DNA of 64,000 bases, taken from the IMG/VR virus record IMGVR_UViG_3300037852_000238. The stretch is one strand, 5' to 3'. This document shows, in pieces, positions 3,753 through 57,023 of this stretch. How positions within the stretch are numbered: the stretch's first letter is position 1; every line of letters starts with the position of its first letter. This DNA comes from a virus. Its lineage: Duplodnaviria > Heunggongvirae > Uroviricota > Caudoviricetes. The notes beneath the pieces were generated by a model, which was given only the letters and a program-made list of their open reading frames with translations, ran no database searches and had not been told where the DNA came from. Position numbers and translations under genes: made by a program.

Positions 3753-4634
3753 GTGCCCTCGCCGCTCGTCCCGTTCGTCCCGCCGATCCTCCCTTTCGCG
3801 CCGGGCATCCCGGCGCTTTTCGCATCCGCCGGCGTCCCGCCGTCGTTGGCGCTGGCTACGGCCGACGGCCCCGGCATCCTGAGCCTGTTCGGCCAGGAGC
3901 AGTGGGGTATCTTTGATGCTTCCGGCAACCCGGTGCTGACCGTCGATGCCGTGGCCTCGGTGGAGTATGCGCGGGATTATCGCATCTCCGATTATCCGCA
4001 GGAGCAGGGGGCGTTCGAGAGCTACAACAAGGTCCAGGTTCCGTTTCAGGCCAAGGTCGGTTTTCTGCTAAACCAGAGCCGGGTCGCTTTCCTCAACGAG
4101 ATCGAGGCGCAGCTCGCGACGCTCTCGCTGGTCTCGGTGGTGACGCCGGAGGTCAGCTACCCCTCGGCCAACCTGACGCACTACGGCTACCGCCGCGTCG
4201 CGCGCAACGGCGTGACAATGGTCCTGGTCGAGGTGTGGTGCGAGGAGGTTCGCGTGACTGCCTCCACGGACCTCACTGGTGGTGGTGGCACCGCCGGCGG
4301 CGCCACCACGCAAAGCGTCAACGGCGCGACCGCGCTCCAGGGTGGCACGGTTCAGGCCCAGCCGACCACGACGACGCCGACCAACCTGGTGACGGGTCTG
4401 CCGGACCAGACGGTTTCGCCGTCACCGCCGCCCACCTCGCTGACCACGCCGAACGTGGGGCCGGCGTACTATACCGCGGACAACTTGCCGACCGTGCCGA
4501 ATTTCGCGTCGCAGCTGACGCCGCAGCAGCTCTCCGGCGCGACGGCGCAGAGCCAGGCGACGGACGCCGCGCAGGCGCAGGTCACGTCGCCGGACGCGAA
4601 CGGTAATATCACCTGGTCTTTCGTCGGCCCGTAA
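3753..4634 (+). CDS. phage tail protein (Thr/Gly/Pro-rich C-terminus)
   Basis: GTG start adjacent to tape-measure stop; position in tail module. Confidence 0.45.
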   Translation: MPSPLVPFVPPILPFAPGIPALFASAGVPPSLALATADGPGILSLFGQEQWGIFDASGNPVLTVDAVASVEYARDYRISDYPQEQGAFESYNKVQVPFQAKVGFLLNQSRVAFLNEIEAQLATLSLVSVVTPEVSYPSANLTHYGYRRVARNGVTMVLVEVWCEEVRVTASTDLTGGGGTAGGATTQSVNGATALQGGTVQAQPTTTTPTNLVTGLPDQTVSPSPPPTSLTTPNVGPAYYTADNLPTVPNFASQLTPQQLSGATAQSQATDAAQAQVTSPDANGNITWSFVGP

Positions 4635-4635
4635 G

Positions 4636-5106
4636 ATGGCCTCACCTTCCGTCCTGATAACGCCCTCGGGGCAGATCCTTGGTGCGGGCCTCTCGCCGCT
4701 CACCGGCGTGCCGACGACGTTGTTGCTGGCGAACGGCGCCGTTACGCTCAGCACGCCTTCGGTGGTCCCGTTACAGCCGCTCCCGGCGCAACTACTGCGG
4801 GTCTCGCTCGGGGGGCAGGCGACCACTATCAAGGTCTACTTCAAACAGATCACGGTTCCTCTGGCCGCGCAGATCCCGACCGTGCCGCCGCCCTACGGGG
4901 CGATCACCCCGTGTTTCCTCGATCTTTACGTCAACGACGCGCTGGTGATCGGCGGGGTGTTGTGTCAGCATGAGAACTTGATCGTGAGGGATTCATATCT
5001 TGGATTCATCGGTGATCTATCGATGATCGATACACAGGGCTCTGAAGACCCTCAAGTGGCGGGACTTGGTTCGCGCTGGATTTTGAGTTATTGGCCCGAC
5101 TTGTAG
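4636..5106 (+). CDS. phage tail protein, 156 aa
   Basis: Tightly packed between tail genes. Confidence 0.4.
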   Translation: MASPSVLITPSGQILGAGLSPLTGVPTTLLLANGAVTLSTPSVVPLQPLPAQLLRVSLGGQATTIKVYFKQITVPLAAQIPTVPPPYGAITPCFLDLYVNDALVIGGVLCQHENLIVRDSYLGFIGDLSMIDTQGSEDPQVAGLGSRWILSYWPDL

Positions 5107-6030
5107 ATGGTCTCCTCCCCTTATGCCAAGCGCCAGATTGTCCTGACCTTCAAGCTGGGTGCCGCGCAGGTGGCCGGTAACGTCGCTGGGGGGATCGCGG
5201 GGAGCAACACTGGCGCTGCGTCGGGCTTCAGCCAGATGACTGTCTCCGGTTTGCGCACCTTTGTCCAGGTTAGCCAGGCGATGACGCCGCAGCCGTCGCA
5301 GTGCCAGATCAGGGTCTTCGGGCTCACCCTCGACCAGATCAACACGCTGACCAAGACAGGTTCGGTGTTCCAGGTGCGTAACAACCAGGTCGCGGTGCAG
5401 GCCGGGGACGACCAGTCGGGCCTGGCGACGATCTTCAACGGGATCATCTACTGGGCCGTCCCAGAGTTCGGCGAGCAGCCCGAGACCTCGTTCCTGATCA
5501 AGGCCAACCCCGGCGGTACGATCCAGCTCAAGCCGACGCCGGCGGTCTCGTTCCCCAAGTCGGTCGCGGCCGATGTGGCGCTGAAGCAGATACTGCAGCC
5601 AGCCGGCGTGACGCTGGAAGCGAACGGCACGATGCCGACCCTGGCCAGCCCGTACTTCCCCGGCACGGTCTGGCAGCAGGCCATGCGCGCGCTCGCCGCT
5701 GGCGACCTGTTCGGCTATTACGACGGTGTCGCGCAGAAGCTGGCCGTGTGGCCCAAGACCGGCAACCGCTCCACCTCGCCGATCACGATCTCCCCGGCGA
5801 CGGGCATGATTGGCTACCCGGAATACATGGAGAACCAGATCCGCGTGCGCACGCTGTTTGATCCAAGTTTCCAGAACGCGACGCCGGGGACGCAGATCCA
5901 GGTTCAGAGTCAGTTGACCCCGGCCAGCGGCAAGTTTGTGCTAAACGTGGTGGACTACAACCTTTCCTCCGAGGCGCCTGGTGGCCCCTGGGAGATGGTA
6001 CTGACCGCAGCGCCGACCGGGACCGAATAG
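5107..6030 (+). CDS. phage tail/baseplate hub-like protein (307 aa)
   Basis: Position between tape measure and baseplate V/W/J-like genes. Confidence 0.45.
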   Translation: MVSSPYAKRQIVLTFKLGAAQVAGNVAGGIAGSNTGAASGFSQMTVSGLRTFVQVSQAMTPQPSQCQIRVFGLTLDQINTLTKTGSVFQVRNNQVAVQAGDDQSGLATIFNGIIYWAVPEFGEQPETSFLIKANPGGTIQLKPTPAVSFPKSVAADVALKQILQPAGVTLEANGTMPTLASPYFPGTVWQQAMRALAAGDLFGYYDGVAQKLAVWPKTGNRSTSPITISPATGMIGYPEYMENQIRVRTLFDPSFQNATPGTQIQVQSQLTPASGKFVLNVVDYNLSSEAPGGPWEMVLTAAPTGTE

Positions 6031-6696
6031 GTGTCCGACGCTCTCCAGGGTGCGGCCGACTCGCGCTCGGTCTCGACCGACTTCCACGCCAGCCAGTTCC
6101 ACATCCAGCAGGCGCTGGCACAGATCTCGACCGCGACTTTGGTCAAGGTGGTCAAGGCGCCGTACGACAAGAACGGCGCAGCACTGACGCCCGGCGCGGC
6201 GGTACCGATTGGATTTATTGACGTCCAGCCACTCGTCAATCAACTGGACGGGTTCGGCAACGCGACGCCGCACGGCACGGTCTATCGGCTCTCCTACTAC
6301 CGCCATTCTGGTGGCAACGGCGCGTTTATTACTGACCCGGTTGTTGGCGATATTGGCAAGATGGTCGTCGCCGACCGCGACACTTCGGTCGTGCGCTCGA
6401 CCAACGCGGCGGCTAATCCGGGGTCGCGGCGGAAGTTCAGCAAAGAAGATGGTACATATTTCGGAACGACGCAGGGCGCAACGGCGCCGACGCAGTATTT
6501 CGCGTGGCTTGCAAAGGGCTTCAATATAACTGACGCCTACGGGAACACGATGGTCGGAACCCAGAATGGCGTATTGATCAATGGTTGTCTGATCAATAAG
6601 TCAGGTGACGTTATAACTAAAAATGGCAAGAACCTCGATACGCACATCCATACGGGAGTTACTTCTGGCAACTCTAATAGCGGTCCTCCAGTTTAA
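6031..6696 (+). CDS. baseplate assembly/spike protein (gpV / Mu gp45-like)
   Basis: 221 aa; position immediately before W-like and J-like baseplate genes. Confidence 0.45.
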   Translation: MSDALQGAADSRSVSTDFHASQFHIQQALAQISTATLVKVVKAPYDKNGAALTPGAAVPIGFIDVQPLVNQLDGFGNATPHGTVYRLSYYRHSGGNGAFITDPVVGDIGKMVVADRDTSVVRSTNAAANPGSRRKFSKEDGTYFGTTQGATAPTQYFAWLAKGFNITDAYGNTMVGTQNGVLINGCLINKSGDVITKNGKNLDTHIHTGVTSGNSNSGPPV

Positions 6697-6698
6697 CT

Positions 6699-7127
6699 GT
6701 GGATACTTTACTCCTCGGGCTTAATACTTGGGATTTGACGATTGACGCATCGGCTAATATCGCTGTTGCGACGGAGCCTTACGCGGTCGCCCAGGACGTG
6801 GCTTCGGCGTGCCGGACCTTTCTCGGTGAGCCATGGTATTCCAAAAATTTGGGAATCCCGTACTTCCAACAGATCCTTGGCAAACTGCCGCCGGCATCGC
6901 TGGTCAAGGCACTGGAGGAGGCCACCGCGCTGACCGTCCCCGGCGTCGTGTCAGCGACGTGCCTGCTTACCGCCCTCGCCAGGCGTGCTCTGGGCGGCCA
7001 GATCAAGCTTATGCTCGATGACGGTACGGTGGCCGTGGTGAACGCTTCGACGCTCCAGGGGCCGACGCCGTGGTACGTGACGGCGGTTTCGCCGCAGGCG
7101 GCCGGTAGCCAGGCGGGTGGTCCGTAG
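6699..7127 (+). CDS. baseplate wedge protein (gpW / GP46 / gp25-like)
   Basis: 142 aa; size and position typical of gp25/W family preceding J-like protein. Confidence 0.5.
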   Translation: MDTLLLGLNTWDLTIDASANIAVATEPYAVAQDVASACRTFLGEPWYSKNLGIPYFQQILGKLPPASLVKALEEATALTVPGVVSATCLLTALARRALGGQIKLMLDDGTVAVVNASTLQGPTPWYVTAVSPQAAGSQAGGP

Positions 7128-8599
7128 TGTCTTCGCCGTTTCCGCCCAACACCGCATGCCCTTTCCCCACACTCGGGCCGCAGGGCTTCATAGTCCCCTC
7201 CGAGTCCGCGATCCTGGCCGGTGTGATGGCCGACATCAACGCGGCTTTCGGCAACAACCTAAACCCCGCGCTGACGACGCCGCAGGGGCAGCTCGCGTCG
7301 AGCGAGGCGGCGGTCATCGGCGACTCGTTCGCGGTGTTCGCGTGGTTCTGCAACATGGTCGACCCGGCCTACTCGGTCGGGCGCATGCAGGACGCGATCG
7401 GGCGCATCTACTTCATTAAGCGCATCGCGGGGGAGCCGACCGTCCAGCCTTGCGTCTGCGCGGGGCTGGACGGGACCACGGTGCCGAACGGCGCGCTGGC
7501 GCAGGACCCGGCGGGCAACCTTTGGGTGGCCCAGGCGAACGGCACGATCGCCGCCGGTTCGGTGACGCTGAACTTCGCGTGCGCGACGAATGGTCCGACG
7601 CCGGGGCCGCCGAGCCTTATCATCTACCAGGCGGTGTTCGGCCTGGAGAGCATCACGCCAACCGGCCCCGCGGCGCTCGGCCGGTTGGTCGAGACCCCGG
7701 CGCAGTTCGAAGCGCGCCGGGCCGCGTCCACCGGGATAAACTCGCTGGGGCCGCTTAACGCGATCCTGGCGGCGGTGCTCCAGGTGCCCGGCGTGCTCGA
7801 CGCATTGGCGCTGGAGAACGATAACTCGACGAGCCAGACGGTTGGTGGGGTATTGCTCCTTGCTAATTCGATCTTCATCTCTGTGGTCGGCGGCAGCGAC
7901 GCGGCGGTGGCGTTCGCAATCTGGTCGCGTAAGGCGCCGGGGTGCAATTACTCCGGCAATACGACCGTGGTGATCACCGACCCGAACCCGGCCTACCAGC
8001 CGCCGGCACCGACGTACAACGTCTCTTTTGGACGCCCGCCGCTGGTACCGTTCGCGGTTGTCGTGACCCTGAAAAACAGCTCGCAAGTCCCGTCCGATGC
8101 GTTGACGCTCGTCCAGAACGCGGTGATTGCGGCCTTTGCCGGACTAGACGGCGGACCGCGTGCCAAGATCGGTTCGCTGGTCTACGCCAGCCGCTATTAC
8201 GCGCCGGTCGCCGCGCTCGGGAACACCTACAACGGCACCACTGGGCAGGTTACACCGGGGTGGTCCGCGCCGATCGTTTCCATCCAGCTCGGGGTTGACG
8301 CTGCGGCGGCGACGATCACCGGGACGATAAACGGTACGACGCTCGCGGTCTCCGCGGTCTCGTCCGGCACGGTCGCGGTTGGCGACCTGGTCGAGGGCTC
8401 CGGCGTGGCGCCGGGGACGATCATCAACGCACTGGCCGGCGGCACGGGGTTAACCGGCAACTACCTGGTCAACCTCTCGCAGACGACTGGTACCGCTAGC
8501 CAGACAATGAACCTGACTGCGCTGCTCAACGACGTGCCGCTCAACGCGCTGCAGGCGCCGGTGGTGAGCGCGGCTAATATATACTTGAACCTGGTTTAA
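7127..8599 (+). CDS. baseplate J-like protein
   Basis: 490 aa; follows W-like gene, precedes I-like and fiber genes (Mu/P2 order). Confidence 0.6.
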   Translation: MSSPFPPNTACPFPTLGPQGFIVPSESAILAGVMADINAAFGNNLNPALTTPQGQLASSEAAVIGDSFAVFAWFCNMVDPAYSVGRMQDAIGRIYFIKRIAGEPTVQPCVCAGLDGTTVPNGALAQDPAGNLWVAQANGTIAAGSVTLNFACATNGPTPGPPSLIIYQAVFGLESITPTGPAALGRLVETPAQFEARRAASTGINSLGPLNAILAAVLQVPGVLDALALENDNSTSQTVGGVLLLANSIFISVVGGSDAAVAFAIWSRKAPGCNYSGNTTVVITDPNPAYQPPAPTYNVSFGRPPLVPFAVVVTLKNSSQVPSDALTLVQNAVIAAFAGLDGGPRAKIGSLVYASRYYAPVAALGNTYNGTTGQVTPGWSAPIVSIQLGVDAAAATITGTINGTTLAVSAVSSGTVAVGDLVEGSGVAPGTIINALAGGTGLTGNYLVNLSQTTGTASQTMNLTALLNDVPLNALQAPVVSAANIYLNLV

Positions 8600-8601
8600 C
8601 A

Positions 8602-9174
8602 GTGCTCGACGTTGATAAGACGGTAATCAGCCAGTACAGCAACAGTCCTGTACTGACGCAGTTAATTGAAAATTTTAATACTTGTGTCGATCCGACGGTA
8701 GATCTACAACAGTTCTACGATTTAATCTGGAACATAGACACCGCACAGGGGGTCGGTCTCGACATTTGGGGACGAATTGTGGGAATCGGCCGAGTTTTAA
8801 CGGTAACCAGCGGCGTTTACTTAGGCATGACCGGCGCTGGCGGCGCCAGCGGCGAGACCTTCAACACCGGCATCTTCTACTCCGGCCAGACGATCACCAG
8901 CAACTACCGGCTGACCGACGAGGCTTACCGCCTGCTGATCCTGGCCAAGGCGGCGGCCAACATCTCGAACGGTTCGGTCCAGTCGATCAACGCGATCCTG
9001 ATGAACCTTTTCCCCAATCGTGGCAACTGCTACGTGACCGATAATGGCAACATGAGCCTGACTTACACCTTCCAGTTCCCGCTCCAGCCGTTCGAGGTAG
9101 CGATCATCAACACTTCCGGTGTGCTGCCCAAGCCGGCCGGCGTCGCCGCGGGCATCAGCTACCCGATACTCTGA
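8602..9174 (+). CDS. tail protein I-like (Mu gp48 / DUF2313-like)
   Basis: 190 aa; between J-like gene and tail fiber. Confidence 0.45.
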   Translation: MLDVDKTVISQYSNSPVLTQLIENFNTCVDPTVDLQQFYDLIWNIDTAQGVGLDIWGRIVGIGRVLTVTSGVYLGMTGAGGASGETFNTGIFYSGQTITSNYRLTDEAYRLLILAKAAANISNGSVQSINAILMNLFPNRGNCYVTDNGNMSLTYTFQFPLQPFEVAIINTSGVLPKPAGVAAGISYPIL

Positions 9175-10841
9175 TGAACGACTCCCAAATTCCCGCTAAA
9201 TTTGCGGCGATCTTCGCTAACGCCGCCCCGGCCGGGAACGTCACTAGCCCGTTCCCGGTCACGGCGCAATCCGGCGGCCTGGCTTCCCTAAACACCGGCT
9301 TCACGACCGTCAACTTCACGCCGATCGCGGGCGGTGGCGTGCCGCCCTGGGGCAAGGACTTCAACGGCCTGTTGCAGCTCCTGACCGCCTGGGACCAGTG
9401 GTTCCAGGCCGGCGGCCCTATCCCGTACGACGGCGCTTTCCAGACCGCGATCGGCGGCTACCCGAAGAACGCGATCGTCGCTTCGGCCGTCACCTCGGGC
9501 CTGTGGTGGCGCTCGACGGTCGAGAACAACGCGACCAACCCGGACACCGGCGGCGCCGGCTGGGTCACCTGGCCGATCACTTATCCGCTGACCGCGCACG
9601 CTGTCGTAGTGGGCGAGGGCACCAACCCGCTGGCCGCGGTTGGCCCCGGCGCGCAGGGCGTGCCGCTGCTCGGCAACGGCGCCAGTAGTGACCCACAGTT
9701 CGCCGCGCTCAACCTGTCTGGCGGCGCGGCGGTCGTAACTGGTGACCTACCGATCGCGAACGGTGGCACCAACGCTACGTCTTTCGTCTCCGGTGGCGTG
9801 GTCTTCTACGACGGCACGCGGCTGACCCAGAATGCGCCGCTGCTGTTCTGGTCGGTCGGTTCCGGCTTCCTTGGGGTGGGCACCAACGCGCCGACCGCGA
9901 CGCTGCACGTCGCCGGAACCGCGCTGGTGACGGGGACCTTCACGGCGAATAGTACGGCTACGTTCGGTAGCTCCTTGAGCGTCGCCGGCGCCGCCGCTTT
10001 TAGCTCCACGCTTTCGGTCGGTGCGTCGGTAACGTTTAATAGCTCCTTGAGCGTCGCTGGCGCGGCCGTTTTTAGCAGTACCATCTCGGTCGCGTCGTCG
10101 GCCACCCTTAATGGTTCCTTGACGGTCGCCGGTGCGGCCAGCTTGAACTCCACTCTCAACGTCGCCGGCGCGGCGGCGTTGAATTCCACGCTAAGCGTCA
10201 CCGGCGCGACGACGCTCAGCCAGAGCCTGCTGGTCGGAAACGGTGCCACGATTACTGGCGTCGTCGGCTCAGGTTATGGGTTGGAGGTCCTCTCCGGTGG
10301 CATATTCGCCACTGGTAACGTCAACTACGTCGGCACCACGACTGGTTTCGGTCTCGGCGCGATCGGCCCGAGCCCGGTGGTCGAGTGGCAGAACGGCGTC
10401 GGCGGCAACACTTGGGTCGTTCAGCACAATAACGCCGCGTCGCTGACCTTTTCGTTCAATACCCTGGGCAAAGCGACGCTTGACCAGTTCGGTAATTTGA
10501 ACATCCAGGGCACGCTGACCCAGGCCTCGGATCGCGCGCTGAAGGACCGGATCGAACTTCTCGACCCAGTGACGGACGTGATCGCGGCGCTACGCCCGGT
10601 GCGCTGCGTCTACCGCGACGAGCCGGACCGCGAGCGCTGGTCGTTGGTGGCGCAGGAGATCCCCGCCGGCCTGGCGCACGCGGTGCGGCCGATGGAGCAG
10701 TGGCGCGTGGTGCGCGGCGAGGAGCCGGAGCGGCAGGAGGATGTGCTGGGTGTGACCTACAACGATATCGTCGTGGCGCTAGTCCGCGAGGTTCAAGACC
10801 TGCGGCGCGAGCTCGACGCGCTACGGAAAATCGCCGCATGA
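9174..10841 (+). CDS. tail fiber protein with C-terminal intramolecular chaperone (peptidase S74-like) domain
   Basis: 12-aa Ala/Ser/Thr-rich shaft repeats; C-terminus DRALKDRIELLDP…WSLVAQEI…VTYNDIVVALVREVQDLRRELDALR matches the auto-cleaving chaperone domain of fibers/endosialidases. Confidence 0.8.
   Translation: MNDSQIPAKFAAIFANAAPAGNVTSPFPVTAQSGGLASLNTGFTTVNFTPIAGGGVPPWGKDFNGLLQLLTAWDQWFQAGGPIPYDGAFQTAIGGYPKNAIVASAVTSGLWWRSTVENNATNPDTGGAGWVTWPITYPLTAHAVVVGEGTNPLAAVGPGAQGVPLLGNGASSDPQFAALNLSGGAAVVTGDLPIANGGTNATSFVSGGVVFYDGTRLTQNAPLLFWSVGSGFLGVGTNAPTATLHVAGTALVTGTFTANSTATFGSSLSVAGAAAFSSTLSVGASVTFNSSLSVAGAAVFSSTISVASSATLNGSLTVAGAASLNSTLNVAGAAALNSTLSVTGATTLSQSLLVGNGATITGVVGSGYGLEVLSGGIFATGNVNYVGTTTGFGLGAIGPSPVVEWQNGVGGNTWVVQHNNAASLTFSFNTLGKATLDQFGNLNIQGTLTQASDRALKDRIELLDPVTDVIAALRPVRCVYRDEPDRERWSLVAQEIPAGLAHAVRPMEQWRVVRGEEPERQEDVLGVTYNDIVVALVREVQDLRRELDALRKIAA
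9960..10211 (+). repeat. about seven tandem 36-bp (12-aa) coding repeats (N/S-S-T-L-S-V-A-G-A-A-x-F/L) in fiber shaft
   Basis: Direct reading of translated repeats SSLSVAGAAAF / SSTLSVGASVTF / NSSLSVAGAAVF …. Confidence 0.6.
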
Positions 10842-12322
10842 GACGCCTTCTCCTCGCCGCCGCGTTCCTTGTCCTTGCCACTGCCCCGGCCGCGGCGCAG
10901 TCCACGCCGCAGTTTACGGCGGGCGGCCAGGTCTTCGGCTTTTTCGCGCCGAGCTGGAACCAGTTCTTCGGCGCGAAGGTCGACGTGAACGGCGGCACGG
11001 CGCACAACCTGACGCTGACCGGCACGGTCAACGGTGCCAACGCGCAGCTGATCCTGCCGACGTTCTCCTCGATATCTGCGACGCAGAACCTGACGACCTT
11101 GCCGCTCGGCCTGACCGGGTGGATCATCCAGGCCGGCGCGCAGGACGGCGTCATCGCGCGCGCCGAGCTCGACTCGTTCGGCAACACGGGGGTTTTCACC
11201 TGCCGCCGGGCGGACGGGACGAACCTCAACAAGACCGTGTTGGTCAACGGCGACGAGATCTGCTCGATCAACGCCTGGGGCTATAACGGTTCGGCCAGCA
11301 ACGTGGGTTACACTTCCGGTGGCCGCATCAGTTTCTTCGCGACCGGCACGTGGTCGCTGACAAGCACGCCGCTGGAGATCCGTTTCTCGACGACGCCGGT
11401 GGGTAGCGTCACGTTGGTTGACCGTTTCCACGTCGGCCCGGACGGCGGGTTCTACGCCGACGGCGTGACCGGCGGCAGCAAGGGCGCTGGCACCGGGAAC
11501 TTCGCCGGGCTGTACATCAACAACGTCGCGCTCTCGGCGATAAGCACTCCGGTCTCGGGGGCGAACGGCGGAACCGGGATCGCGAACACCGGCTCGACGC
11601 TGAGCCTGAACGGCGCGCACAACTACGGCTTTACGGCCAGCGTCGATACCACTGTGACGCTCCCCGCCGGTTCGTCGTCGACCTTAGCGAGCCTCGCCGG
11701 CACGGAGGCGTTAACTAATAAAACCATAAACGGCCTCACGATCACGACCTCGACCGGTACGTTGACGGTTGCCAACGGTAAGGTCGCGACGATCAACAAC
11801 ACGCTGACCTTCACGGGCACCGACGGCAGCAGCGTCGCCTTCGGCGCGGGTGGGACGATCGGCGGCGTAGGCTACGCCAGCAATGGGCAAGTCCCCGGCG
11901 TTGCCTCTAACACCGCTGCAACCGCCGGCAACTTCGGGGAGATCATCAAATCGGTAGTTACTTCTGGATCGGCGGTTCCCCTAGTAAGCTCTACATCAAA
12001 GACTGTAACATCAATTACATTAACTGCCGGTGAGTGGAATATCACAGGATGTGTATATATTTTGCCCGCAGCTACAACTTCTACTACAACAGAAGCCGTT
12101 TCAATCGGAGATGCCGATAATACTTTTATTACCACTCCTGGACGATACGCCGAACTTACTACATCCGCTGTTGTAACAGGTGGGGTTGAAGACACCTATT
12201 GTGTGCCTGCATATTACCTGTCTCTTTCTGGGAATTCTACTAAATACCTGATTGCTAATGCGGCCTTCTCCGTAAGTACCGCGTCGGCATTCGGTTATAT
12301 ACAAGCTGTTAGGATACACTAA
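10838..12322 (+). CDS. second fiber-like protein with N-terminal Sec-type signal peptide and low-GC C-terminal domain
   Basis: ATGA overlap with fiber 1; MRRLLLAAAFLVLATAPAAAQ signal-like N-terminus; Gly/Thr/Asn-rich beta-helix-like repeats; last ~400 nt markedly AT-rich. Confidence 0.65.
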   Translation: MRRLLLAAAFLVLATAPAAAQSTPQFTAGGQVFGFFAPSWNQFFGAKVDVNGGTAHNLTLTGTVNGANAQLILPTFSSISATQNLTTLPLGLTGWIIQAGAQDGVIARAELDSFGNTGVFTCRRADGTNLNKTVLVNGDEICSINAWGYNGSASNVGYTSGGRISFFATGTWSLTSTPLEIRFSTTPVGSVTLVDRFHVGPDGGFYADGVTGGSKGAGTGNFAGLYINNVALSAISTPVSGANGGTGIANTGSTLSLNGAHNYGFTASVDTTVTLPAGSSSTLASLAGTEALTNKTINGLTITTSTGTLTVANGKVATINNTLTFTGTDGSSVAFGAGGTIGGVGYASNGQVPGVASNTAATAGNFGEIIKSVVTSGSAVPLVSSTSKTVTSITLTAGEWNITGCVYILPAATTSTTTEAVSIGDADNTFITTPGRYAELTTSAVVTGGVEDTYCVPAYYLSLSGNSTKYLIANAAFSVSTASAFGYIQAVRIH

Positions 12323-12324
12323 CA

Positions 12325-12771: not shown

Positions 12772-12772
12772 G

Positions 12773-13279: not shown

Positions 13280-13280
13280 C

Positions 13281-13958
13281 GTGACCTTTCGCCCCGACGT
13301 ACTGGCCGAGTTCCTGCGCTCGCCGCTGCCGCCTTCGGCGGTGGCATTCGTGATGGATATTGCATCGGGCGAGATCAACTCGGCCCAGGGCTTCGAGACG
13401 CTGGCCGGCGGTGGCGCGATGACCGCCGCGATGTGCGGCGGCACGCTGTTCGCGCGCTACCCCGTCTGGGACGGCATCCCCGACTCGGCTGGCACCAGCC
13501 ACGGCGCCGGGGCGTTCCAGTGGGAGCGCCGTACCGCGGCGAGCATCACTGCCGGCACCGGCGTCACGACCTTCTACTCGCAGGACCAGATCAACGGCTC
13601 GTGGTGGTGGGCGAAGCTGTGCTACCACGCCGCTACCGAGCGCGACCTCGGCGCGGACCTGGCGGCCGGCTACTTCGACTCGCCGGGGCACGGCCCTGCT
13701 GGCCTCGGCAACCAGTGGGACCGTGGCAAGGTCGCAGGGCCGGGCAGCGACCGCTATGCCGGGTTCCTGGCGCAGGTTAATCAGGGACGTACGACGCCGG
13801 CTTCGCCAGCGCCGCCCGTCGTGCCGCTGACGCCGATCCAGGTCATCCTCGCCGGGGCGAACTTCAAGGACGGCGTGCGCGCGTTTCAGGCAGCGCGCGG
13901 GCTCGGGGTGGACGGCGTGATCGGCCCACACACGCTCGCGGCGCTGAACGCGGGGTGA
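13281..13958 (+). CDS. putative endolysin with C-terminal peptidoglycan-binding (PG_binding_1-like) domain
   Basis: C-terminal FKDGVRAFQAARGLGVDGVIGPHTLAALNAG motif; precedes membrane-protein genes (lysis cassette). Confidence 0.6.
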   Translation: MTFRPDVLAEFLRSPLPPSAVAFVMDIASGEINSAQGFETLAGGGAMTAAMCGGTLFARYPVWDGIPDSAGTSHGAGAFQWERRTAASITAGTGVTTFYSQDQINGSWWWAKLCYHAATERDLGADLAAGYFDSPGHGPAGLGNQWDRGKVAGPGSDRYAGFLAQVNQGRTTPASPAPPVVPLTPIQVILAGANFKDGVRAFQAARGLGVDGVIGPHTLAALNAG

Positions 13959-14233
13959 CCTGGTTCTTCCTTTCTGGCGGCGCTTTCATGGCGTTCGCTG
14001 CGGTCGTCACGCTGCTGATCGCGGCTTCGCTTATCGCGCCGTTCTTCAACGCCGAGCCCGAGCCGCCTCCGCCCGCGCCGGGGCCGCGGCTTGACACGCT
14101 GCCGCGGCGCAACTTCGTCCTTCACCCGCGGACGCCGTATCATCGGCACGTCCTGGTCGAGCGGACGCGCATCGTGCGGTATCGCGGCCAGTACTACGTC
14201 GAGGTCACCGAGTTCGACTATGAGATTGCGTAG
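13955..14233 (+). CDS. single-TM membrane protein (holin/lysis-associated candidate)
   Basis: GTGA overlap with endolysin stop; one hydrophobic helix then charged tail. Confidence 0.35.
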   Translation: MTWFFLSGGAFMAFAAVVTLLIAASLIAPFFNAEPEPPPPAPGPRLDTLPRRNFVLHPRTPYHRHVLVERTRIVRYRGQYYVEVTEFDYEIA

Positions 14234-14242
14234 GAGTCACTT

Positions 14243-14407
14243 ATGTCGCTTGGTCTAACACTCGTCATTATTCTCGTTCTCGCGCTGTTCGGTGGGTTCT
14301 TTCCCATCGGCGGCAACTACGGGTATGGATTCGGGGGAGGGGGCATCGGGGTTGTCGGCATCATCCTGATCATCCTCGTTGTGCTATTGCTCACGGGACG
14401 GTTGTAG
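14243..14407 (+). CDS. DUF3309-like small membrane protein (55 aa, two TM helices around a Gly-rich loop)
   Basis: AGGAG RBS 6 nt upstream; hand translation MSLGLTLVIILVLALFGGFFPIGGNYGYGFGGGGIGVVGIILIILVVLLLTGRL; not in ORF track (<60 aa). Confidence 0.5.
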   Translation: MSLGLTLVIILVLALFGGFFPIGGNYGYGFGGGGIGVVGIILIILVVLLLTGRL

Positions 14408-14829
14408 TGACTGGTCGCGTCTCATTACTCGCTCTGCTTTTTGTCGCCGGCTGTGCGCAGACGCCGGCGACCGCACCGCCGCAGGCGATGCCGCTGCTCC
14501 CGCTGCCGGCTCCGGCCAGGGCACCCATCGTCGAGACGCCTTCCGCGTGCCCACTCGGCCAGGTACTGCGCCGCGTTCGTGTTCGCCATGGCACTTACCA
14601 GACCGCCAGGTGCATCCCTCTCGATCGCCAGGTGCGGGGCGCGGTGCCGCTAGAGGACCCGATCAACGTCGCGTGCAAGGAGCTGGTCGTCGCGGAGCGT
14701 GGGAAGCCTCCTCTCGATAAGCCCGCGCCCGCGGTGGTGTTCTGCGACGACACCAAGCGCTACCACTCGGGCGACCCCGAGGCGGATGCGCGCTGGATAC
14801 ACGGTGAGACCAAGGCACTATCGCGGTAG
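14407..14829 (+). CDS. lipoprotein (lipobox LFVAGC); o-spanin candidate
   Basis: N-terminal signal plus Cys lipobox; inside the lysis cassette. Confidence 0.55.
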   Translation: MTGRVSLLALLFVAGCAQTPATAPPQAMPLLPLPAPARAPIVETPSACPLGQVLRRVRVRHGTYQTARCIPLDRQVRGAVPLEDPINVACKELVVAERGKPPLDKPAPAVVFCDDTKRYHSGDPEADARWIHGETKALSR

Positions 14830-14832
14830 ACG

Positions 14833-15153
14833 ATGGCCGACGCTCCGCGCATCAACGGCTCCGGCGGGTGGGCTATCCCGTTAGCCTCGCTCGTAGTAAC
14901 GGTCCTTGCGCTGATGTTTGCCATGTACGAGTCCTCCAACTCCACTTCAGCTAGCTCGGCGACGGCCTTTCAGAATCTCCAGTCCAGGGTGGCGGTCCTG
15001 GAGAATGAGATCGCCCGCTCGAACCAGGACGCCGGCCAGGATCGCTCGGAATACAGGCAGGGATTCAACGATATCTCCAAGAGATTCGAGTCCGTCCAGA
15101 CAGCAATCGCCGACTTGTATACGAAACTGGCGAGCAAGGCTGACCGCAAATGA
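14833..15153 (+). CDS. N-terminal TM plus coiled-coil protein; i-spanin-like candidate
   Basis: TM helix residues ~14-32, then heptad-like QNLQSRVAVLENEIARSNQ. Confidence 0.4.
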   Translation: MADAPRINGSGGWAIPLASLVVTVLALMFAMYESSNSTSASSATAFQNLQSRVAVLENEIARSNQDAGQDRSEYRQGFNDISKRFESVQTAIADLYTKLASKADRK

Positions 15154-15605
15154 ACTGGAATTGGCCGCTTATCATAAGCTTCGGGGCGGTGATACTTCTG
15201 CAGATCGTCTCGTATTGGTACGACCGGCGACAGTACTCGGTACTTAACAAGCAATTTCAAGAGATGGCGGATCGGGTCAGCATCATTAACGCGGGTTATA
15301 CGCCAATGTTCACGGCGTTACTCAAGGTCGTCGTCCCGGAATTGACGCATTTTCACACGCCCGAAGCCGATGATCTCCTGGCGCGGATCGCCACTCTCAA
15401 AGACGACGAGATGGATCGACTTGAAGTGCTCATGCGCGAGCGGGAGAGCGTGGTGGACCCCCAAATTTCTCCGAAAGAACGCGCGACCGCGCGAGCGCTG
15501 CCGTGGATTGCCCGGCGTGCCCGCGAGGAGGCCCAGGTCGGCCCGGACGTTCGCGTCGTCGTGCAGATGGTCTCGACTTCGTTGGAGGTGCAGGAGCCCA
15601 AGTGA
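15150..15605 (+). CDS. membrane-anchored hypothetical protein (151 aa)
   Basis: N-terminal TM helix; ATGA-coupled to preceding gene. Confidence 0.4.
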   Translation: MNWNWPLIISFGAVILLQIVSYWYDRRQYSVLNKQFQEMADRVSIINAGYTPMFTALLKVVVPELTHFHTPEADDLLARIATLKDDEMDRLEVLMRERESVVDPQISPKERATARALPWIARRAREEAQVGPDVRVVVQMVSTSLEVQEPK

Positions 15606-16081
15606 ACCGCCCAGACTCCCGAAAGATAGTCCTCCCCAACTTCGCCAAGGTTGACGCGACGCTGTGGCGCGGCGGCCGGCCGGACGAGGCCGGCGCGCGC
15701 TGGCTGGTCGCCGAGGGCGTACGCACGGTCGTCAACCTGGAGTGGGAGCAGGAGGACGACGACGTGTTCGGTTACGCGCCCGCGGTTCGCTTCGTGCGGG
15801 TCAAAGATTTTGAGCCGCTGCCCTGGTTCGCGCCGTCGGTGTCGGATCATCACGCCCGGCGGTTTCTCGCCGTCGTGCGCTCCGGTTCTACGCCGGTCTA
15901 CGTCCACTGCCGCTCGGGCGAGAACCGCACCGGCGTCATGGTCGCGGCGTACCAGCTGATCGTGAAGGGCCTGCTGCTCGACGACGTGCTAGATGAGTTT
16001 GACCGCTTCCGCGGCTTCTGGGCGTGGGGTGATTTTCGCTACATCCGCTCGCTCGACGCGCGCCGGTTGAGCTTCCGGTGA
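15602..16081 (+). CDS. protein-tyrosine / dual-specificity phosphatase family protein (CX5R active site)
   Basis: GTG start overlapping previous stop; VHCRSGENRTG = HCx5R P-loop; upstream DxxN-like acid region. Confidence 0.7.
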   Translation: MNRPDSRKIVLPNFAKVDATLWRGGRPDEAGARWLVAEGVRTVVNLEWEQEDDDVFGYAPAVRFVRVKDFEPLPWFAPSVSDHHARRFLAVVRSGSTPVYVHCRSGENRTGVMVAAYQLIVKGLLLDDVLDEFDRFRGFWAWGDFRYIRSLDARRLSFR

Positions 16082-16254
16082 CCCGCCGACCCCGCTACTT
16101 CACGCGCGCCCTCGGCGCCGTGGCGTTGCTATTGGCCGTGGGGAACGGCATCCAGAAGTGCTCGGCCGATTTGGTGGCCGACGCCGACGCCGCGACGGCG
16201 GAGTACTGGCGGCTCTGGGTCGTCGGCGACGTGGCTAAGTGCCCGCGGCCCTAG
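16078..16254 (+). CDS. small hypothetical membrane/secreted protein (58 aa)
   Basis: GTGA overlap with phosphatase stop; hydrophobic core ALGAVALLLAVG. Confidence 0.25.
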   Translation: MTRRPRYFTRALGAVALLLAVGNGIQKCSADLVADADAATAEYWRLWVVGDVAKCPRP

Positions 16255-16466
16255 AGCGACAGCGCCGCGAACGCCGCGCGCAGCTCGGCCAGCCGCGCGC
16301 GGATGAGGTCGCGCAGCTCGGCCGCGACGCCGGCCGGCACCGGCGCGGTCCCGGCGCACCAGCGGCGCACCGCGCGTGCGTCGACGCCGAGCGCCGCCGC
16401 GAGCTGCGGGCGGAACTCGGCGCCGAAGAGCGCGGTGCCGGTCTGGGTTAGGAGGGCGGGGGTCAC
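16251..16466 (-). CDS. small HTH-like protein
   Basis: C-terminal part of listed ORF; AALGVDARAVRRWCAG helix-turn-helix-like; probable GTG start near 16464. Confidence 0.4.
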   Translation of the reverse strand: MTPALLTQTGTALFGAEFRPQLAAALGVDARAVRRWCAGTAPVPAGVAAELRDLIRARLAELRAAFAALSL

Positions 16467-17125
16467 AGCGCTACCACCCGGTTGACGATCGTTTGCCGTT
16501 CGCCGCGGTAATCCGAGTGGTCCTTTACCGTCGCCTTGATCGTCAGCTTCGAGCCTTCCTTGCGGTAGAAGCTCGCCGACTTCGAGACCAGCAAGTTGCC
16601 CGTCGCGTCGCGCATATTGACGATGTAGACGGTCTCGTAGCCGTCGCCGTTGAACTGAATTCGGCCGAACGAGTGGACGCGTTCGACCTCGACCTCCGCT
16701 GTGATGCGGTTCCTGACGGCGCCGACGTAGTCGGACGCCGCACGCTTGGCGGCGCGCTCCGCATCCGTCATGATGCGGTTGCGGACCGCATTTAGCTGGG
16801 CGTCGCTTAGGGCCGCTTCGCGCGCGGCGCGGCGTAGTAGGCTCGCGGCGAACTCGTTGTCCTCGGGCTGAGCGCGGAGCCACGCTAATACGTCGCCGTT
16901 CGCGACCTCAAACGCCTCGCGACGAACCGCCGCTTCAGCGGCAATCTCGGCAGCCTTTACCGCGACGACCGCCAGCTTCTTCGCGTTGCGCTTTTCGGCC
17001 GCGGCGTTCAGCTTCGCCAGCTTCTCCGCCGTGTGGAGCCGCTCCGAGGCGGCGCTGCCGAGGCCGGAGCCGGCGCAGTCGTAGCAGGTATAGCCGGTGT
17101 GGCGCCACTGCTCGCCGCCGCCCAA
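16463..17125 (-). CDS. hypothetical protein (220 aa) with N-terminal CxxC pair
   Basis: Long ORF with protein-like composition opposite the late operon. Confidence 0.5.
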   Translation of the reverse strand: MGGGEQWRHTGYTCYDCAGSGLGSAASERLHTAEKLAKLNAAAEKRNAKKLAVVAVKAAEIAAEAAVRREAFEVANGDVLAWLRAQPEDNEFAASLLRRAAREAALSDAQLNAVRNRIMTDAERAAKRAASDYVGAVRNRITAEVEVERVHSFGRIQFNGDGYETVYIVNMRDATGNLLVSKSASFYRKEGSKLTIKATVKDHSDYRGERQTIVNRVVAL

Positions 17126-17227
17126 GCCACCGCACCGACGACACTTGGCCGTATAGACGTAGAACGGAACGCCTTTCGCGTCTTCGTGATTCGGGTTGCG
17201 GACCTTACTGTGGCGGTTGAAAAGGGC

Positions 17228-17262
17228 GGTCGTTCTTATGCCCTCCGGTCATAAGAACGACC
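17228..17262 (-). terminator. 13-bp perfect stem hairpin (GGTCGTTCTTATG / CATAAGAACGACC, 9-nt loop), weak T-run on minus strand
   Basis: Seen directly; overlaps stop of gene 17236..17442; followed on minus strand by GCCCTTTTC. Confidence 0.3.
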
Positions 17263-17442
17263 AACTTCGGCGATTTCCGTTACACCATCCACCGGCGGAT
17301 AGCGCCGCGCGATGGCGACGTACTCGGCGTCACCAAGCCCGGTGTCGTCTCCGAGGTTCAGGTAGCTGTAAACGTAGCGGCACTCCTCGTCCGGGTCGAC
17401 GGCTAGGAAATAGACGGTTATCGTGGCGATTTCGTGCGTCAT
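17236..17442 (-). CDS. hypothetical protein (68 aa)
   Basis: ATG with GGAGGG RBS; first gene downstream of motif copy 1. Confidence 0.45.
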   Translation of the reverse strand: MTHEIATITVYFLAVDPDEECRYVYSYLNLGDDTGLGDAEYVAIARRYPPVDGVTEIAEVGRSYDRRA

Positions 17443-17491
17443 CTCGGTCCCTCCAAGGGCGGGTCGGCCCAGCGCCAACCCCAACGATCAC

Positions 17492-17525
17492 TAACTTACG
17501 CGCTTTACTCAGCGGAGTAAATAGC
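17492..17525 (-). promoter_or_regulatory. copy 1 of 34-nt two-box motif TAACTTACGCGC-N13-GTAAATAGC
   Basis: Five same-orientation, same-spacing copies in the window, all 5' of minus-strand genes; on minus strand reads TTTACT-N17-TAAGTT. Confidence 0.55.
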
Positions 17526-17539
17526 AAAAAGGAGCCAAC

Positions 17540-19733: not shown

Positions 19734-19765
19734 CGCCCCGCCTCGCGCGGGGCGTTTTGCGTTTT
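19734..19765 (+). terminator. rho-independent terminator (8-bp GC stem, TTTTGCGTTTT tail) at convergence point
   Basis: CGCCCCGC-ctcgc-GCGGGGCG followed by T-run; lies between convergent genes. Confidence 0.7.
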
Positions 19766-20796: not shown

Positions 20797-20801
20797 GGTA
20801 T

Positions 20802-21023: not shown

Positions 21024-21028
21024 CTAAG

Positions 21029-25413: not shown

Positions 25414-25446
25414 AAAGGTCGCCGGGTGAGTCGTTTCAGTTCAACC

Positions 25447-27590: not shown

Positions 27591-27708
27591 ACCATGTCGA
27601 TAAACTGGATCACGTCCATCGTTAACCAGACGATAACGACGCGGCCGGCCCAGGCAAGCTCGCGCGGCGTCAGCGACTGACCGGAGAGGATGCGGTGGAG
27701 GGTGTCCA

Positions 27709-44831: not shown

Positions 44832-44835
44832 CGCG

Positions 44836-57020: not shown

Positions 57021-57023
57021 CCC

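What the first reader, a model, noticed from the sequence alone, without database searches (positions are those of the whole stretch)
15602..16081. CX5R protein phosphatase encoded at the end of the phage late/lysis operon
VHCRSGENRTG is a textbook tyrosine/dual-specificity phosphatase P-loop. Phage-encoded PTP/DSP-family enzymes are uncommon and could target host signalling, inositol pyrophosphates or polyphosphate (Siw14-like).
Basis: seen in the sequence. Interest (0 to 1): 0.55.

Follow-up and report, generated by a model that had tools for sequence, protein, structure and literature searches.

The report
Phage-carried dual-specificity cysteine phosphatase gene
A large bacteriophage carries an intact 159-residue cysteine phosphatase that lacks an export signal; it belongs to a small clade that hops as a single gene between unrelated phages, it is an ordinary enzyme type in an uncharacterised viral setting, and its target is unknown.

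Summary
ORF 15602-16081 (+) encodes a 159-aa protein whose VHCRSGENRTG motif (nt 15902-15934) sits in a true PTP/DSP fold. Evidence: Pfam PF22741 at 5e-17; AlphaFold pLDDT 93; best structural matches P. aeruginosa TpbA, Arabidopsis PFA-DSP1 and human DUSP23. Cys103, Arg109 and an Asp69 that aligns with the DUSP23 general acid are conserved, and dN/dS is about 0.26.

The whole window is a large phage. The gene is the penultimate one in a translationally coupled string that follows the tail-fibre genes and a putative lysis region.

The subfamily is small (29 clusters at E<=1e-30 among 1.84 billion representatives) and splits in two. The bacterial forms carry a signal peptide or lipobox and a two-cysteine tail. 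A clade without either is found on at least eight unrelated phage contigs, where the phosphatase is the only shared gene.

The Siw14-like reading is not supported. Three of the four P-loop side chains that bind inositol pyrophosphate are replaced, one with reversed charge, and a general acid is present where PFA-DSPs have none.

Most likely it is a cytoplasmic dual-specificity protein phosphatase that acts on host phosphoproteins. The substrate is unproven. It is a new member of a known kind, of moderate interest.

The parts
15602..16081 (+). Phosphatase gene: 159 aa, no signal peptide, DSP-type member of the PTP superfamily
15902..15934 (+). P-loop VHCRSGENRTG. Cys103 is the nucleophile (codon 15908-15910) and Arg109 the phosphate clamp.
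   Evidence: Read from the sequence. H102, C103, R109 and G111 are invariant in 48 homologues. P-loop variants counted.
15797..15847 (+). General-acid loop RVKDFEPLPWFAPSVSD. Asp69 (15806-15808) aligns with Asp65 of the DUSP23/VHZ 'IPD' loop. E71-P72-L73-P74 are invariant in the phage clade.
   Evidence: hhalign of A1 against DUSP23, probability 97.9 %, E 4.4e-13; conservation
15584..15596 (+). Shine-Dalgarno-like GGAGG and AGGAG ahead of the GTG start. The start overlaps the upstream stop (GTGA).
   Evidence: Read from the sequence
15150..15605 (+). Upstream, translationally coupled ORF of 151 aa with an N-terminal membrane helix. No family match, and not conserved next to the phosphatase in other phages.
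16078..16254 (+). Downstream overlapping 58-aa ORF with a hydrophobic N-terminus; the last gene of the + strand string.
13281..15153 (+). Putative lysis region: a 225-aa protein with a C-terminal PG_binding_1 domain that matches endolysin PHROGs only over that domain; an 81-aa single-TM protein; a 54-aa DUF3309 membrane protein; a 140-aa lipoprotein (lipobox FVAGC); and a 106-aa TM plus coiled-coil protein.
   Evidence: The assignment is an inference.
1416..12322 (+). Baseplate and tail-fibre module of a myovirus-like phage, in the same orientation and upstream of the phosphatase.
   Evidence: baseplate J-like protein about 46 % identical to Burkholderia and Acetobacter phages

Best explanation
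The gene encodes a catalytically competent cysteine phosphatase of the dual-specificity (DSP) branch of the PTP superfamily, with no signal peptide.

Mechanism, taken from the established chemistry of the family:
- The Cys103 thiolate in the HC(103)RSGENR(109)TG loop attacks a phosphomonoester held by Arg109 and the P-loop amides.
- Asp69 in the RVKD(69)FEP loop protonates the leaving group.
- The thiophosphoryl enzyme is then hydrolysed.

Family: it belongs to a small subfamily. The bacterial members are exported: they carry a signal peptide or lipobox and a C-terminal two-cysteine tail. TpbA of P. aeruginosa is the nearest characterised relative. The phage members have lost both features and travel as a self-sufficient single-gene cassette between unrelated phages.

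In this phage the gene is probably co-expressed with the tail-fibre and lysis-region genes. The protein is made in the host cytoplasm and most likely removes phosphate from phospho-Tyr/Ser/Thr proteins of the host, either ordinary signalling proteins or a kinase-based response to infection, to the phage's benefit.

Shown here: the ORF, the fold, the catalytic residues, purifying selection, the split into a clade with and a clade without the export features, the phage contexts, and the lack of a conserved neighbour.
Inferred: enzyme activity, cytoplasmic location, protein substrate, timing of expression, and benefit to the phage.
For: - Pfam PTP-superfamily hits above cut-off.
- Confident model whose best structural matches are TpbA, PFA-DSP1 and DUSP23.
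- The family profile hits TpbA at 1.7e-16 and DUSP23 at hhalign probability 97.9 %, with D69 aligned to the DUSP23 general acid D65.
- H102, C103, R109 and G111 are invariant, and D69 is at least 90 % conserved in the phage clade.
- dN/dS is about 0.26.
- No hydrophobic leader in the query (maximum Kyte-Doolittle 12-mer 0.83). Of the 84 long forms, 62 have a strongly hydrophobic leader, 51 a lipobox-like motif and 79 two Cys in the tail. The tree separates the two forms.
- The short forms lie on phage-like contigs with different architectures. The phosphatase is the only gene shared within +/-10 kb.
- None of the 43 loci in bacterial species-representative genomes is a short form, although the search motif fits both forms.
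- TpbA dephosphorylates pTyr peptides about 20-fold faster (kcat) than pNPP (PMC4409338).
- The neutral or acidic P-loop position 4 (E/Q) argues for a monoester such as a phosphoprotein rather than a polyanionic substrate.
Against: - No substrate is identified and there is no biochemical data.
- The nearest characterised relative acts in the periplasm on one specific cyclase, so substrate transfer by homology is weak (27 % identity).
- The PTP fold also hydrolyses RNA ends, lipids, sugars and inositol pyrophosphates.
- Genomic position varies between phages (late or lysis region, DNA-metabolism operon, isolated gene), so timing gives no consistent clue.
- No phage- or host-encoded kinase partner was found near any copy.
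- In some phages the enzyme is fused to, or lies next to, a possible zincin-like hydrolase. This hints at a more specific but unknown joint function.
Confidence: 0.5

Rival explanations
1. Siw14/PFA-DSP-like pyrophosphatase: it cleaves phosphoanhydride bonds of inositol pyrophosphates or inorganic polyphosphate in the host.
For: - AtPFA-DSP1 is the best single-sequence PDB hit (1.3e-10).
- PF03162 (Y_phosphatase2) scores above its cut-off.
- Siw14 appears among the fold matches.
- A 'SIW14-like' protein of an uncultured phage is a structural neighbour in BFVD.
Against: - In AtPFA-DSP1, K151, R152, K154 and H155 of the P-loop bind the phosphates of 5-InsP7, and the WPD-equivalent loop has no general acid (PMC9038691).
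- Here the same positions are R104, S105, E107 and N108, and D69 occupies the general-acid position.
- The family profile is much closer to TpbA than to PFA-DSP1 or Siw14.
- Bacteria are not known to make inositol pyrophosphates (own knowledge).
Confidence: 0.06
2. Sugar-phosphate phosphatase for the phage's own nucleotide-sugar pathway. It would stand in for GmhB, removing the 7-phosphate of heptose-1,7-bisphosphate between the GHMP kinase and nucleotidyltransferase steps.
For: - 3.7 kb downstream, on the other strand, the phage encodes a SIS isomerase, a GHMP kinase, an NTP transferase, an epimerase, a DegT aminotransferase, a B12-radical-SAM enzyme and split TPP-enzyme subunits.
- No HAD-type (GmhB-like) phosphatase was found among the ORFs of the cluster and its surroundings that were scanned against Pfam.
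Against: - The gene is not in the sugar operon.
- None of the other phage loci with the phosphatase has such genes within +/-10 kb.
- The host normally supplies GmhB (own knowledge).
- No PTP-fold heptose phosphatase is known (own knowledge).
- Only 64 kb of the genome was seen.
Confidence: 0.07
3. Nucleotide or cofactor phosphomonoesterase, for example an NADP(H) 2'-phosphatase that raises NAD(H), possibly against NAD-depleting defence systems.
For: - The best Pfam model is PF22741, defined on DSP domains fused to NAD kinase.
- In L054 the gene is in an operon after ThyX and before nuclease genes. In L003 it lies next to a histidine phosphatase.
Against: - The protein has no NAD-kinase domain.
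- The sister clade is exported to a compartment without NADP.
- The Pfam match says only that the DSP domains are similar.
- No nucleotide-binding feature was identified.
Confidence: 0.08
4. Polynucleotide 5'-phosphatase like baculovirus BVP or human PIR1/DUSP11. It would convert 5'-tri/diphosphate RNA ends to monophosphate, for host mRNA decay or RNA repair.
For: - The P-loop ends in N-R-T-G.
- The family profile hits PIR1 (1.5e-5), BVP (3.4e-5) and the mRNA capping enzyme (7.8e-5).
- L053 also encodes a T4-type RNA ligase 1.
Against: - These hits are about 11 orders of magnitude weaker than the TpbA hit.
- RNA 5'-phosphatases of this class lack the WPD motif (PMC9038691), whereas D69 is conserved here.
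- The charge at P-loop position 4 (E/Q) is unfavourable for a triphosphate.
Confidence: 0.08
5. Envelope- or lysis-linked role. Like its exported relatives it would act on a periplasmic or membrane substrate (a phosphorylated envelope protein or a lipid-linked phosphate), reaching it from the cytoplasmic face or after holin action.
For: - In this phage and in L053 the gene follows endolysin-like and small membrane-protein genes, and here it is translationally coupled to them.
- Its bacterial relatives are exported.
- TpbA acts on periplasmic tyrosines of TpbB/YfiN.
Against: - There is no leader, and the disulfide tail has been lost.
- In other phages the gene sits in replication or early regions.
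- After holin triggering there is very little time for enzymatic action (own knowledge).
Confidence: 0.08
6. Catalytically dead binding protein (pseudophosphatase).
For: One distant short-form relative has lost the Cys (P0130: VQAKLTERVG).
Against: Cys, Arg, the flanking His, Asn-Arg-Thr-Gly and the general-acid Asp are all intact here and across the clade.
Confidence: 0.02

Closest known systems
TpbA (PA3885) of Pseudomonas aeruginosa, periplasmic dual-specificity phosphatase
   Same: - Nearest characterised relative by profile (1.7e-16) and by fold (Foldseek E 2.7e-9, TM 0.75).
- Same single-domain DSP fold.
- The P-loops HCKHGNNRT and HCRSGENRT share 6 of 9 positions.
- The bacterial sister clade of the phage protein is exported, as TpbA is.
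   Different: - Only about 27 % identical.
- No signal peptide.
- Ser replaces the P-loop His.
- The general-acid loop is of the DUSP23 'xxD-F-x-P' type, not the TpbA 'HAD105RVDD' type.
- Phage-encoded and cytoplasmic, so TpbB/YfiN periplasmic tyrosines are an unlikely target.
Human DUSP23/VHZ (small atypical DSP)
   Same: - Similar size (150 aa).
- hhalign probability 97.9 %.
- 'RIPD65F..P..AP' aligns with 'RVKD69FEPLPWFAP', and HC..G..RTG is shared.
- Fold match at TM 0.73.
   Different: - Eukaryotic.
- About 26 % identity.
- P-loop CALGFGR against CRSGENR.
PFA-DSP / Siw14 inositol-pyrophosphate phosphatases
   Same: - Best single-sequence PDB hit.
- Shared N-terminal 'NF..V...(W/F)R(G/S)..P' motif and HC..G..RTG.
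- Same fold.
   Different: - Lacks the basic P-loop side chains (R152, K154, H155 equivalents are S, E, N).
- Has a general-acid Asp where PFA-DSPs have Asn.
Poxvirus VH1/H1 dual-specificity phosphatases
   Same: Virus-encoded small DSPs that dephosphorylate a host immune signalling protein (STAT1; PMC13577060). They give a functional precedent for a viral DSP used against the host. Weak profile hit at 7e-7.
   Different: - Eukaryotic viruses.
- Domain-swapped dimers.
- Distant in sequence.
- No evidence that the phage enzyme targets immunity.
Bacteriophage lambda Ser/Thr/Tyr protein phosphatase (PPP family)
   Same: A phage-encoded protein phosphatase of unknown role in infection (own knowledge).
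   Different: A metal-dependent PPP fold, unrelated to the Cys-based PTP fold.

Membership tests
PTP superfamily (Cys-based CX5R phosphatases), DSP branch | H-C-X5-R-(S/T) P-loop | tested here: met
   HCRSGENRT at residues 102-110. H102, C103 and R109 are invariant in 48 homologues.
PTP superfamily (Cys-based CX5R phosphatases), DSP branch | General acid Asp in the loop about 30 residues before the Cys | tested here: met
   D69 lies 34 residues before C103 and aligns with D65 of DUSP23. It is at least 90 % conserved in the phage clade. Its function is inferred.
PTP superfamily (Cys-based CX5R phosphatases), DSP branch | Central beta-sheet with flanking helices (DSP fold) | tested here: met
   Model pLDDT 92.9. 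235 PDB matches at E<=0.001, all of those listed being PTP/DSP-fold proteins.
PTP superfamily (Cys-based CX5R phosphatases), DSP branch | Cys-dependent phosphomonoesterase activity | not testable with these tools
   Needs recombinant protein.
TpbA-type bacterial DUSP | Significant sequence relationship to TpbA | tested here: met
   Profile E 1.7e-16. But identity is about 27 %, far below the 52-68 % used to call TpbA homologues in PMC13577060.
TpbA-type bacterial DUSP | P-loop H-C-x-H-G-x-x-R-T | tested here: inconclusive
   6 of 9 residues are identical to TpbA. The His after C-x is Ser here.
TpbA-type bacterial DUSP | Signal peptide and periplasmic location | tested here: not met
   No hydrophobic N-terminus. 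The start is fixed by the RBS and the overlap with the upstream stop.
TpbA-type bacterial DUSP | Dephosphorylates TpbB/YfiN | not testable with these tools
   The host is unknown.
PFA-DSP / Siw14 inositol pyrophosphatases | Basic P-loop C-K-R-G-K-H-R whose side chains bind PP-InsP phosphates | tested here: not met
   The P-loop here is C-R-S-G-E-N-R, against the AtPFA-DSP1 alignment and the residue roles given in PMC9038691.
PFA-DSP / Siw14 inositol pyrophosphatases | No Asp/Glu general acid in the WPD-equivalent loop | tested here: not met
   D69 is present at the position of Asn119 of AtPFA-DSP1.
PFA-DSP / Siw14 inositol pyrophosphatases | Match to Pfam PF03162 (Y_phosphatase2) | tested here: met
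   32.4 bits against a cut-off of 27. It is weaker than PF22741.
Pfam PF22741 (DSP-PTPase fused to NAD kinase) | Score above the gathering threshold | tested here: met
   62.1 bits against 27.
Pfam PF22741 (DSP-PTPase fused to NAD kinase) | Fusion or association with NAD kinase | tested here: not met
   It is a stand-alone 159-aa protein. No NAD kinase appeared in the Pfam listings of any phage locus examined or among the recurrent neighbours of the bacterial loci.
Cys-type RNA 5'-phosphatases (BVP, PIR1, capping-enzyme triphosphatase) | Lack of the WPD motif and general acid | tested here: not met
   D69 is conserved. Only weak profile hits, 1.5e-5 to 1e-4.
Phage lysis cassette | Adjacent, co-oriented endolysin, holin and spanin genes | tested here: inconclusive
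   Only the PG_binding_1 domain of the 225-aa protein matches endolysin families. The small neighbours have TM or lipobox features but no family hits.

The most novel reading that the evidence does not exclude
The phage clade without export signal or Cys tail is a dedicated counter-defence or host-takeover enzyme. It would be a mobile single-gene cassette that erases a phosphorylation-based host response: a kinase-triggered abortive infection, a BY-kinase-controlled envelope response, or a phosphorylated small-molecule or RNA signal. In some phages it would act together with a fused or adjacent zincin-like hydrolase. That would make it the first functionally defined Cys-phosphatase of bacteriophages.
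Probability: 0.15. Interest if true: 0.75.

Novelty: new member of a known kind. Interest (0 to 1): 0.38.

Why it matters
No bacteriophage PTP/DSP-fold phosphatase has been characterised. A 2025 structural review of microbial DUSPs lists TpbA as the only bacterial example and only poxviral enzymes for viruses (PMC13577060). Phage genome papers merely annotate 'tyrosine phosphatase'.

Here a catalytically intact version of an otherwise exported bacterial DSP, without its export signal, recurs as a lone mobile gene in at least eight unrelated phages. That pattern is typical of genes which act directly on the host. Recent work shows that a phage kinase disarms bacterial defences through pervasive phosphorylation (PMC13645617). 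A phage phosphatase clade is therefore a concrete, testable handle on the reverse reaction.

The enzyme class itself is ordinary, so the value lies in identifying its substrate.

Tried and rejected
- Motif scans of IMG/VR with the alignment and with the single protein found no relatives. These scans need exact motif matches, so absence is not proof.
- tblastn against 50,697 GenBank phage records gave only two 25 %-identical hits, both in Acinetobacter phage MD-2021a.
- PHROGs gave only a marginal hit to 'dual specificity phosphatase' (0.043). PADLOC gave nothing for the phosphatase or its immediate neighbours.
- No conserved neighbours were found around the bacterial long forms in 43 loci, only scattered LysR/MerR regulators. 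None were found around the phage forms either.
- The longer ORF starting at 15503 (192 aa) was rejected. It overlaps the upstream gene by about 100 nt, homologues start near residue 4-13 of the 159-aa form, and the database protein is 159 aa.
- D82 (the 'SD82H' motif) was first taken as the general acid from the PFA-DSP1 and TpbA alignments. The hhalign alignment to DUSP23 and the PFA-DSP1 literature instead point to D69.
- The promoter and terminator scan of 12000-18000 gave nothing above the shuffled expectation.
- The partner family was absent from the window by HMM search (E<=10). Its model is only of moderate quality (pLDDT 68), and its fold matches to metzincins are all weaker than E 0.05. 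It had no Pfam, PHROG or PDB sequence hit.
- Literature searches for a characterised phage PTP or DSP found none.
Full report
**1. The observation**

The window has an ORF at exactly 15602-16081 on the + strand. It translates to 159 aa and contains VHCRSGENRTG at residues 101-111, nt 15902-15934.

The GTG start overlaps the stop of the upstream ORF (GTGA). AGGAG lies 5 nt upstream of it. A longer reading from 15503 would overlap the upstream gene by about 100 nt and is not supported by homologues.

The motif is in a true PTP-fold context:
- Pfam gives PF22741 at 5.3e-17 (62 bits, cut-off 27). PF22785, PF22784 and PF03162 are also above their cut-offs.
- phmmer against PDB sequences gives Arabidopsis PFA-DSP1 at 1.3e-10 and P. 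aeruginosa TpbA at 7e-8.
- An AlphaFold2 model built on 48 homologues has pLDDT 92.9 and pTM 0.88.
- Its best Foldseek matches are TpbA (E 2.7e-9, TM 0.75), PFA-DSP1, DUSP23 and Siw14.
- H102, C103, R109 and G111 are invariant in the alignment.
- GC3 is 0.87. dN/dS against a 73 %-identical orthologue is about 0.26.

**2. Catalytic apparatus**

A profile-profile alignment of the family with human DUSP23/VHZ has probability 97.9 % and E 4.4e-13. I recalled the DUSP23 sequence from memory and verified it against PDB 4erc and 2img. The alignment puts 'RVKD69FEPLPWFAP' on 'RIPD65FCPP---AP'. D69 therefore sits at the general-acid position of the DUSP23 'IPD' loop. D69 is at least 90 % conserved in the phage clade.

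The protein thus has the nucleophile, the arginine clamp and a general acid, which is the canonical PTP mechanism. I first took D82 as the acid, from the PFA-DSP1 and TpbA alignments. I dropped that after seeing the DUSP23 alignment and reading that PFA-DSPs have no general acid in that loop (PMC9038691).

**3. Context in the window**

The whole window is phage:
- Baseplate and tail-fibre genes at 1416-12322. The baseplate J-like protein is about 46 % identical to those of Burkholderia and Acetobacter myoviruses.
- On the other strand: DNA polymerase, helicase, class II ribonucleotide reductase, a thymidylate-synthase-like protein, a dCTP-deaminase-like protein, an MT-A70 methylase and a homing endonuclease.
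- No tRNAs.
- No close relative at the DNA level among GenBank phages.

The identical sequence of window 5602-26081 lies on a 103-kb public contig.

After the tail fibres comes this series of genes:
- A 225-aa protein whose C-terminal PG_binding_1 domain matches endolysin families.
- An 81-aa single-TM protein.
- A 54-aa DUF3309 membrane protein.
- A 140-aa lipoprotein.
- A 106-aa TM plus coiled-coil protein.
- A 151-aa N-terminally anchored protein.
- The phosphatase.
- An overlapping 58-aa ORF.

After this series the gene orientation reverses. 'End of a late/lysis operon' is therefore roughly right. But the lysis assignment is an inference, and the phosphatase is the penultimate gene. The consensus promoter and terminator scan was uninformative.

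**4. The family**

The word-indexed search found 125 relatives. An exhaustive HMM search with the phage-clade profile found 29 clusters at E<=1e-30, 1,237 at E<=1e-10 and 6,063 at E<=1e-3 among 1.84 billion representatives. The specific subfamily is therefore small.

A neighbour-joining tree and a length analysis split it in two:
- Long forms, 210-270 aa. Of 84, 62 have a hydrophobic N-terminal leader, 51 a lipobox-like motif, and 79 two cysteines in a C-terminal tail of about 32 residues. They occur in MAGs, mostly Burkholderiales and other Betaproteobacteria.
- Short forms, 145-187 aa, with no leader and no Cys tail.

The motif used to scan 185,579 species-representative genomes (HCRSG[QE]NRT) fits both forms, yet all 43 loci found were long forms at 50 % identity or less. 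The long forms have no conserved neighbours.

**5. The short forms are phage genes**

I looked up the contigs that encode short forms. All those long enough to judge are phage-like, and their architectures differ:

| Locus | Features |
|---|---|
| L002 | GpA terminase, portal, capsid |
| L003/L004 | Terminase_6N, sheath, gp15-like, ribosomal protein S21 |
| L006/L007 | 102-kb contig with capsid, HNH, methylase |
| L008/L009 | VapE-like, helicase, SMC-like |
| L053 | GH25 lysozyme, DNA methylase, T4 RNA ligase 1, RecT |
| L054 | Operon ThyX-phosphatase-PDDEXK-SbcCD-like |
| L137 | 64-kb contig with HNH and T5orf172; a natural fusion protein |

With the window, that makes at least eight contexts. 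An all-against-all BLAST shows that the phosphatase is the only gene shared within +/-10 kb. Even the 73 %-identical copy in L055 has unrelated neighbours.

The gene therefore behaves as a self-sufficient mobile cassette. GenBank phages contain only two weak matches, and IMG/VR none by motif scan. The metagenome scan added further short forms, but only on 1-3 kb contigs.

**6. Mechanism and function**

What is shown:
- An intact DSP-type enzyme under purifying selection.
- It lacks export signals.
- It has spread horizontally among phages.

What I infer:
- It acts in the host cytoplasm as a phosphomonoesterase, most likely on phosphoproteins.
- Its nearest characterised relatives (TpbA, DUSP23) are protein phosphatases. 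TpbA turns over pTyr peptides about 20-fold faster (kcat) than pNPP (PMC4409338).
- P-loop position 4 is Glu or Gln throughout the subfamily. That disfavours polyanionic substrates.

I put 0.9 on 'active PTP-superfamily phosphatase' and about 0.45-0.5 on 'protein substrate of the host'.

Rivals, each below 0.1:
- The Siw14-like reading.
- A GmhB substitute for the phage's nucleotide-heptose-like cluster at 19765-28344. No HAD phosphatase was found among the ORFs of that cluster and its surroundings that were scanned. However, the two features do not co-occur in the other phages.
- An NADP or nucleotide phosphatase, suggested only by the name of the best Pfam model.
- An RNA 5'-phosphatase, supported by weak profile hits.
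- An envelope- or lysis-linked role.
- A pseudophosphatase.

**7. The Siw14-like idea**

In AtPFA-DSP1, the P-loop residues K151, R152, K154, H155 and R156 hold the phosphates of 5-InsP7. The enzyme has no Asp/Glu general acid. The aligned residues here are R104, S105, E107, N108 and R109, and D69 is present. The family profile prefers TpbA (1.7e-16) to PFA-DSP1 (5e-10) and Siw14 (9.5e-6). Two defining features were tested and not met, so I do not file the protein as PFA-DSP-like.

**8. A lead from relatives**

Two short-form relatives (P0122, 365 aa; P0267, 375 aa) carry an N-terminal domain of about 215 aa. That domain also exists as a stand-alone phage protein family, and it is encoded beside the phosphatase in L059, L060/L061 and L006/L007.

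It has invariant H, H-E-x-x-E, D-P and D-P-V-E motifs. It has no Pfam, PHROG or PDB sequence match. Its model is of moderate quality (pLDDT 68), and its best fold matches, all weak (E 0.06-0.4), are uniformly metzincin or zincin proteases.

One stand-alone member sits at the same place in another 107-kb phage: after the baseplate and tail-fibre genes and an endolysin. The family is absent from this window, so it does not explain this gene. The fusion does suggest that, in some phages, the phosphatase works with a second hydrolase.

**9. Comparison and novelty**

The enzyme kind is well known. The specific clade, a phage-borne sister group of exported TpbA-like bacterial DSPs without their leader, has not been described in the papers I could search. 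A 2025 review names TpbA as the only bacterial DUSP and discusses only poxviral enzymes among viruses. Phage genome papers only annotate such genes.

I rate it a new member of a known kind, with interest 0.38. The most novel reading that I cannot exclude is that the clade is a counter-defence or takeover enzyme erasing a phosphorylation-based host response (probability about 0.15).

Noticed in passing
Not in the window. P0122, P0267 (L137 10001-11128); L059 1170-1838; L061 1946-2656; L006 8136-8831; L138 10001-10642: A phage protein family of about 215 aa with no Pfam or PHROG hit. It has invariant H / H-E-x-x-E / D-P / D-P-V-E motifs and a weak zincin-like fold signal. It is fused N-terminally to short-form phosphatases in two proteins and lies beside the phosphatase in three other loci. 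Alone, it occupies the same post-endolysin position in another 107-kb phage.
   Followed up: partly
window 19765-28344 (- strand): A phage-encoded nucleotide-sugar cluster: GHMP kinase, NTP transferase, B12-binding radical SAM, SIS isomerase, NAD-epimerase, DegT aminotransferase and two halves of a TPP enzyme (E1_dh and transketolase-like). It resembles an NDP-heptose or branched amino-sugar pathway. No GmhB-type phosphatase was found among the ORFs scanned against Pfam.
   Followed up: partly
window 35623-36165 (- strand): A 180-aa protein that combines an HTH_3 domain (residues 63-99) with a C-terminal ribosome modulation factor (RMF) domain. The RMF hit is 29.8 bits against a cut-off of 27.9. 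This is a possible phage-encoded ribosome-hibernation-like module.
   Followed up: no
window 44346-57857 (- strand): A cluster that may point to modified DNA bases. It holds a dCTP-deaminase-like protein (44346-44831), an MT-A70 methyltransferase (46818-47372), a PAPS-reductase-like protein (48216-49235) and a long thymidylate-synthase-like protein (50058-51077, 338 aa, only 1.5e-22 to ThyA). It also holds a protein matching a PHROG annotated 'DNA repair photolyase' (54684-56069) and a protein matching a PHROG annotated 'threonine dehydratase' (57024-57857). A homing endonuclease lies at 56059-56859.
   Followed up: no
window 31388-32602 (- strand): An SPFH/Band-7 domain protein of 404 aa encoded by the phage.
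   Followed up: no
window 14243-14407 (+): A 54-aa glycine-rich two-TM DUF3309 protein inside the putative lysis region. A 54-aa ORF also precedes the phosphatase region in L055/L056, but its homology to this one was not tested.
   Followed up: no
L003 7390-7605: A phage contig carrying a short-form phosphatase also encodes a ribosomal protein S21 homologue. A histidine phosphatase (His_Phos_1) lies directly next to the PTP gene.
   Followed up: no
P0130 (169 aa): A short-form relative in which the P-loop Cys and the surrounding motif are lost (VQAKLTERVG). It is a probable pseudophosphatase within the wider clade.
   Followed up: no
window 5602-26081 = L001; contig logan:SRR12659391_33279: The window is identical (0 mismatches over 20,480 bp) to part of a 103-kb public contig. 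By the reported coordinates that contig would end near window position 41,354. The genome is therefore either larger than about 125 kb, or the two records are circular permutations of each other.
   Followed up: partly
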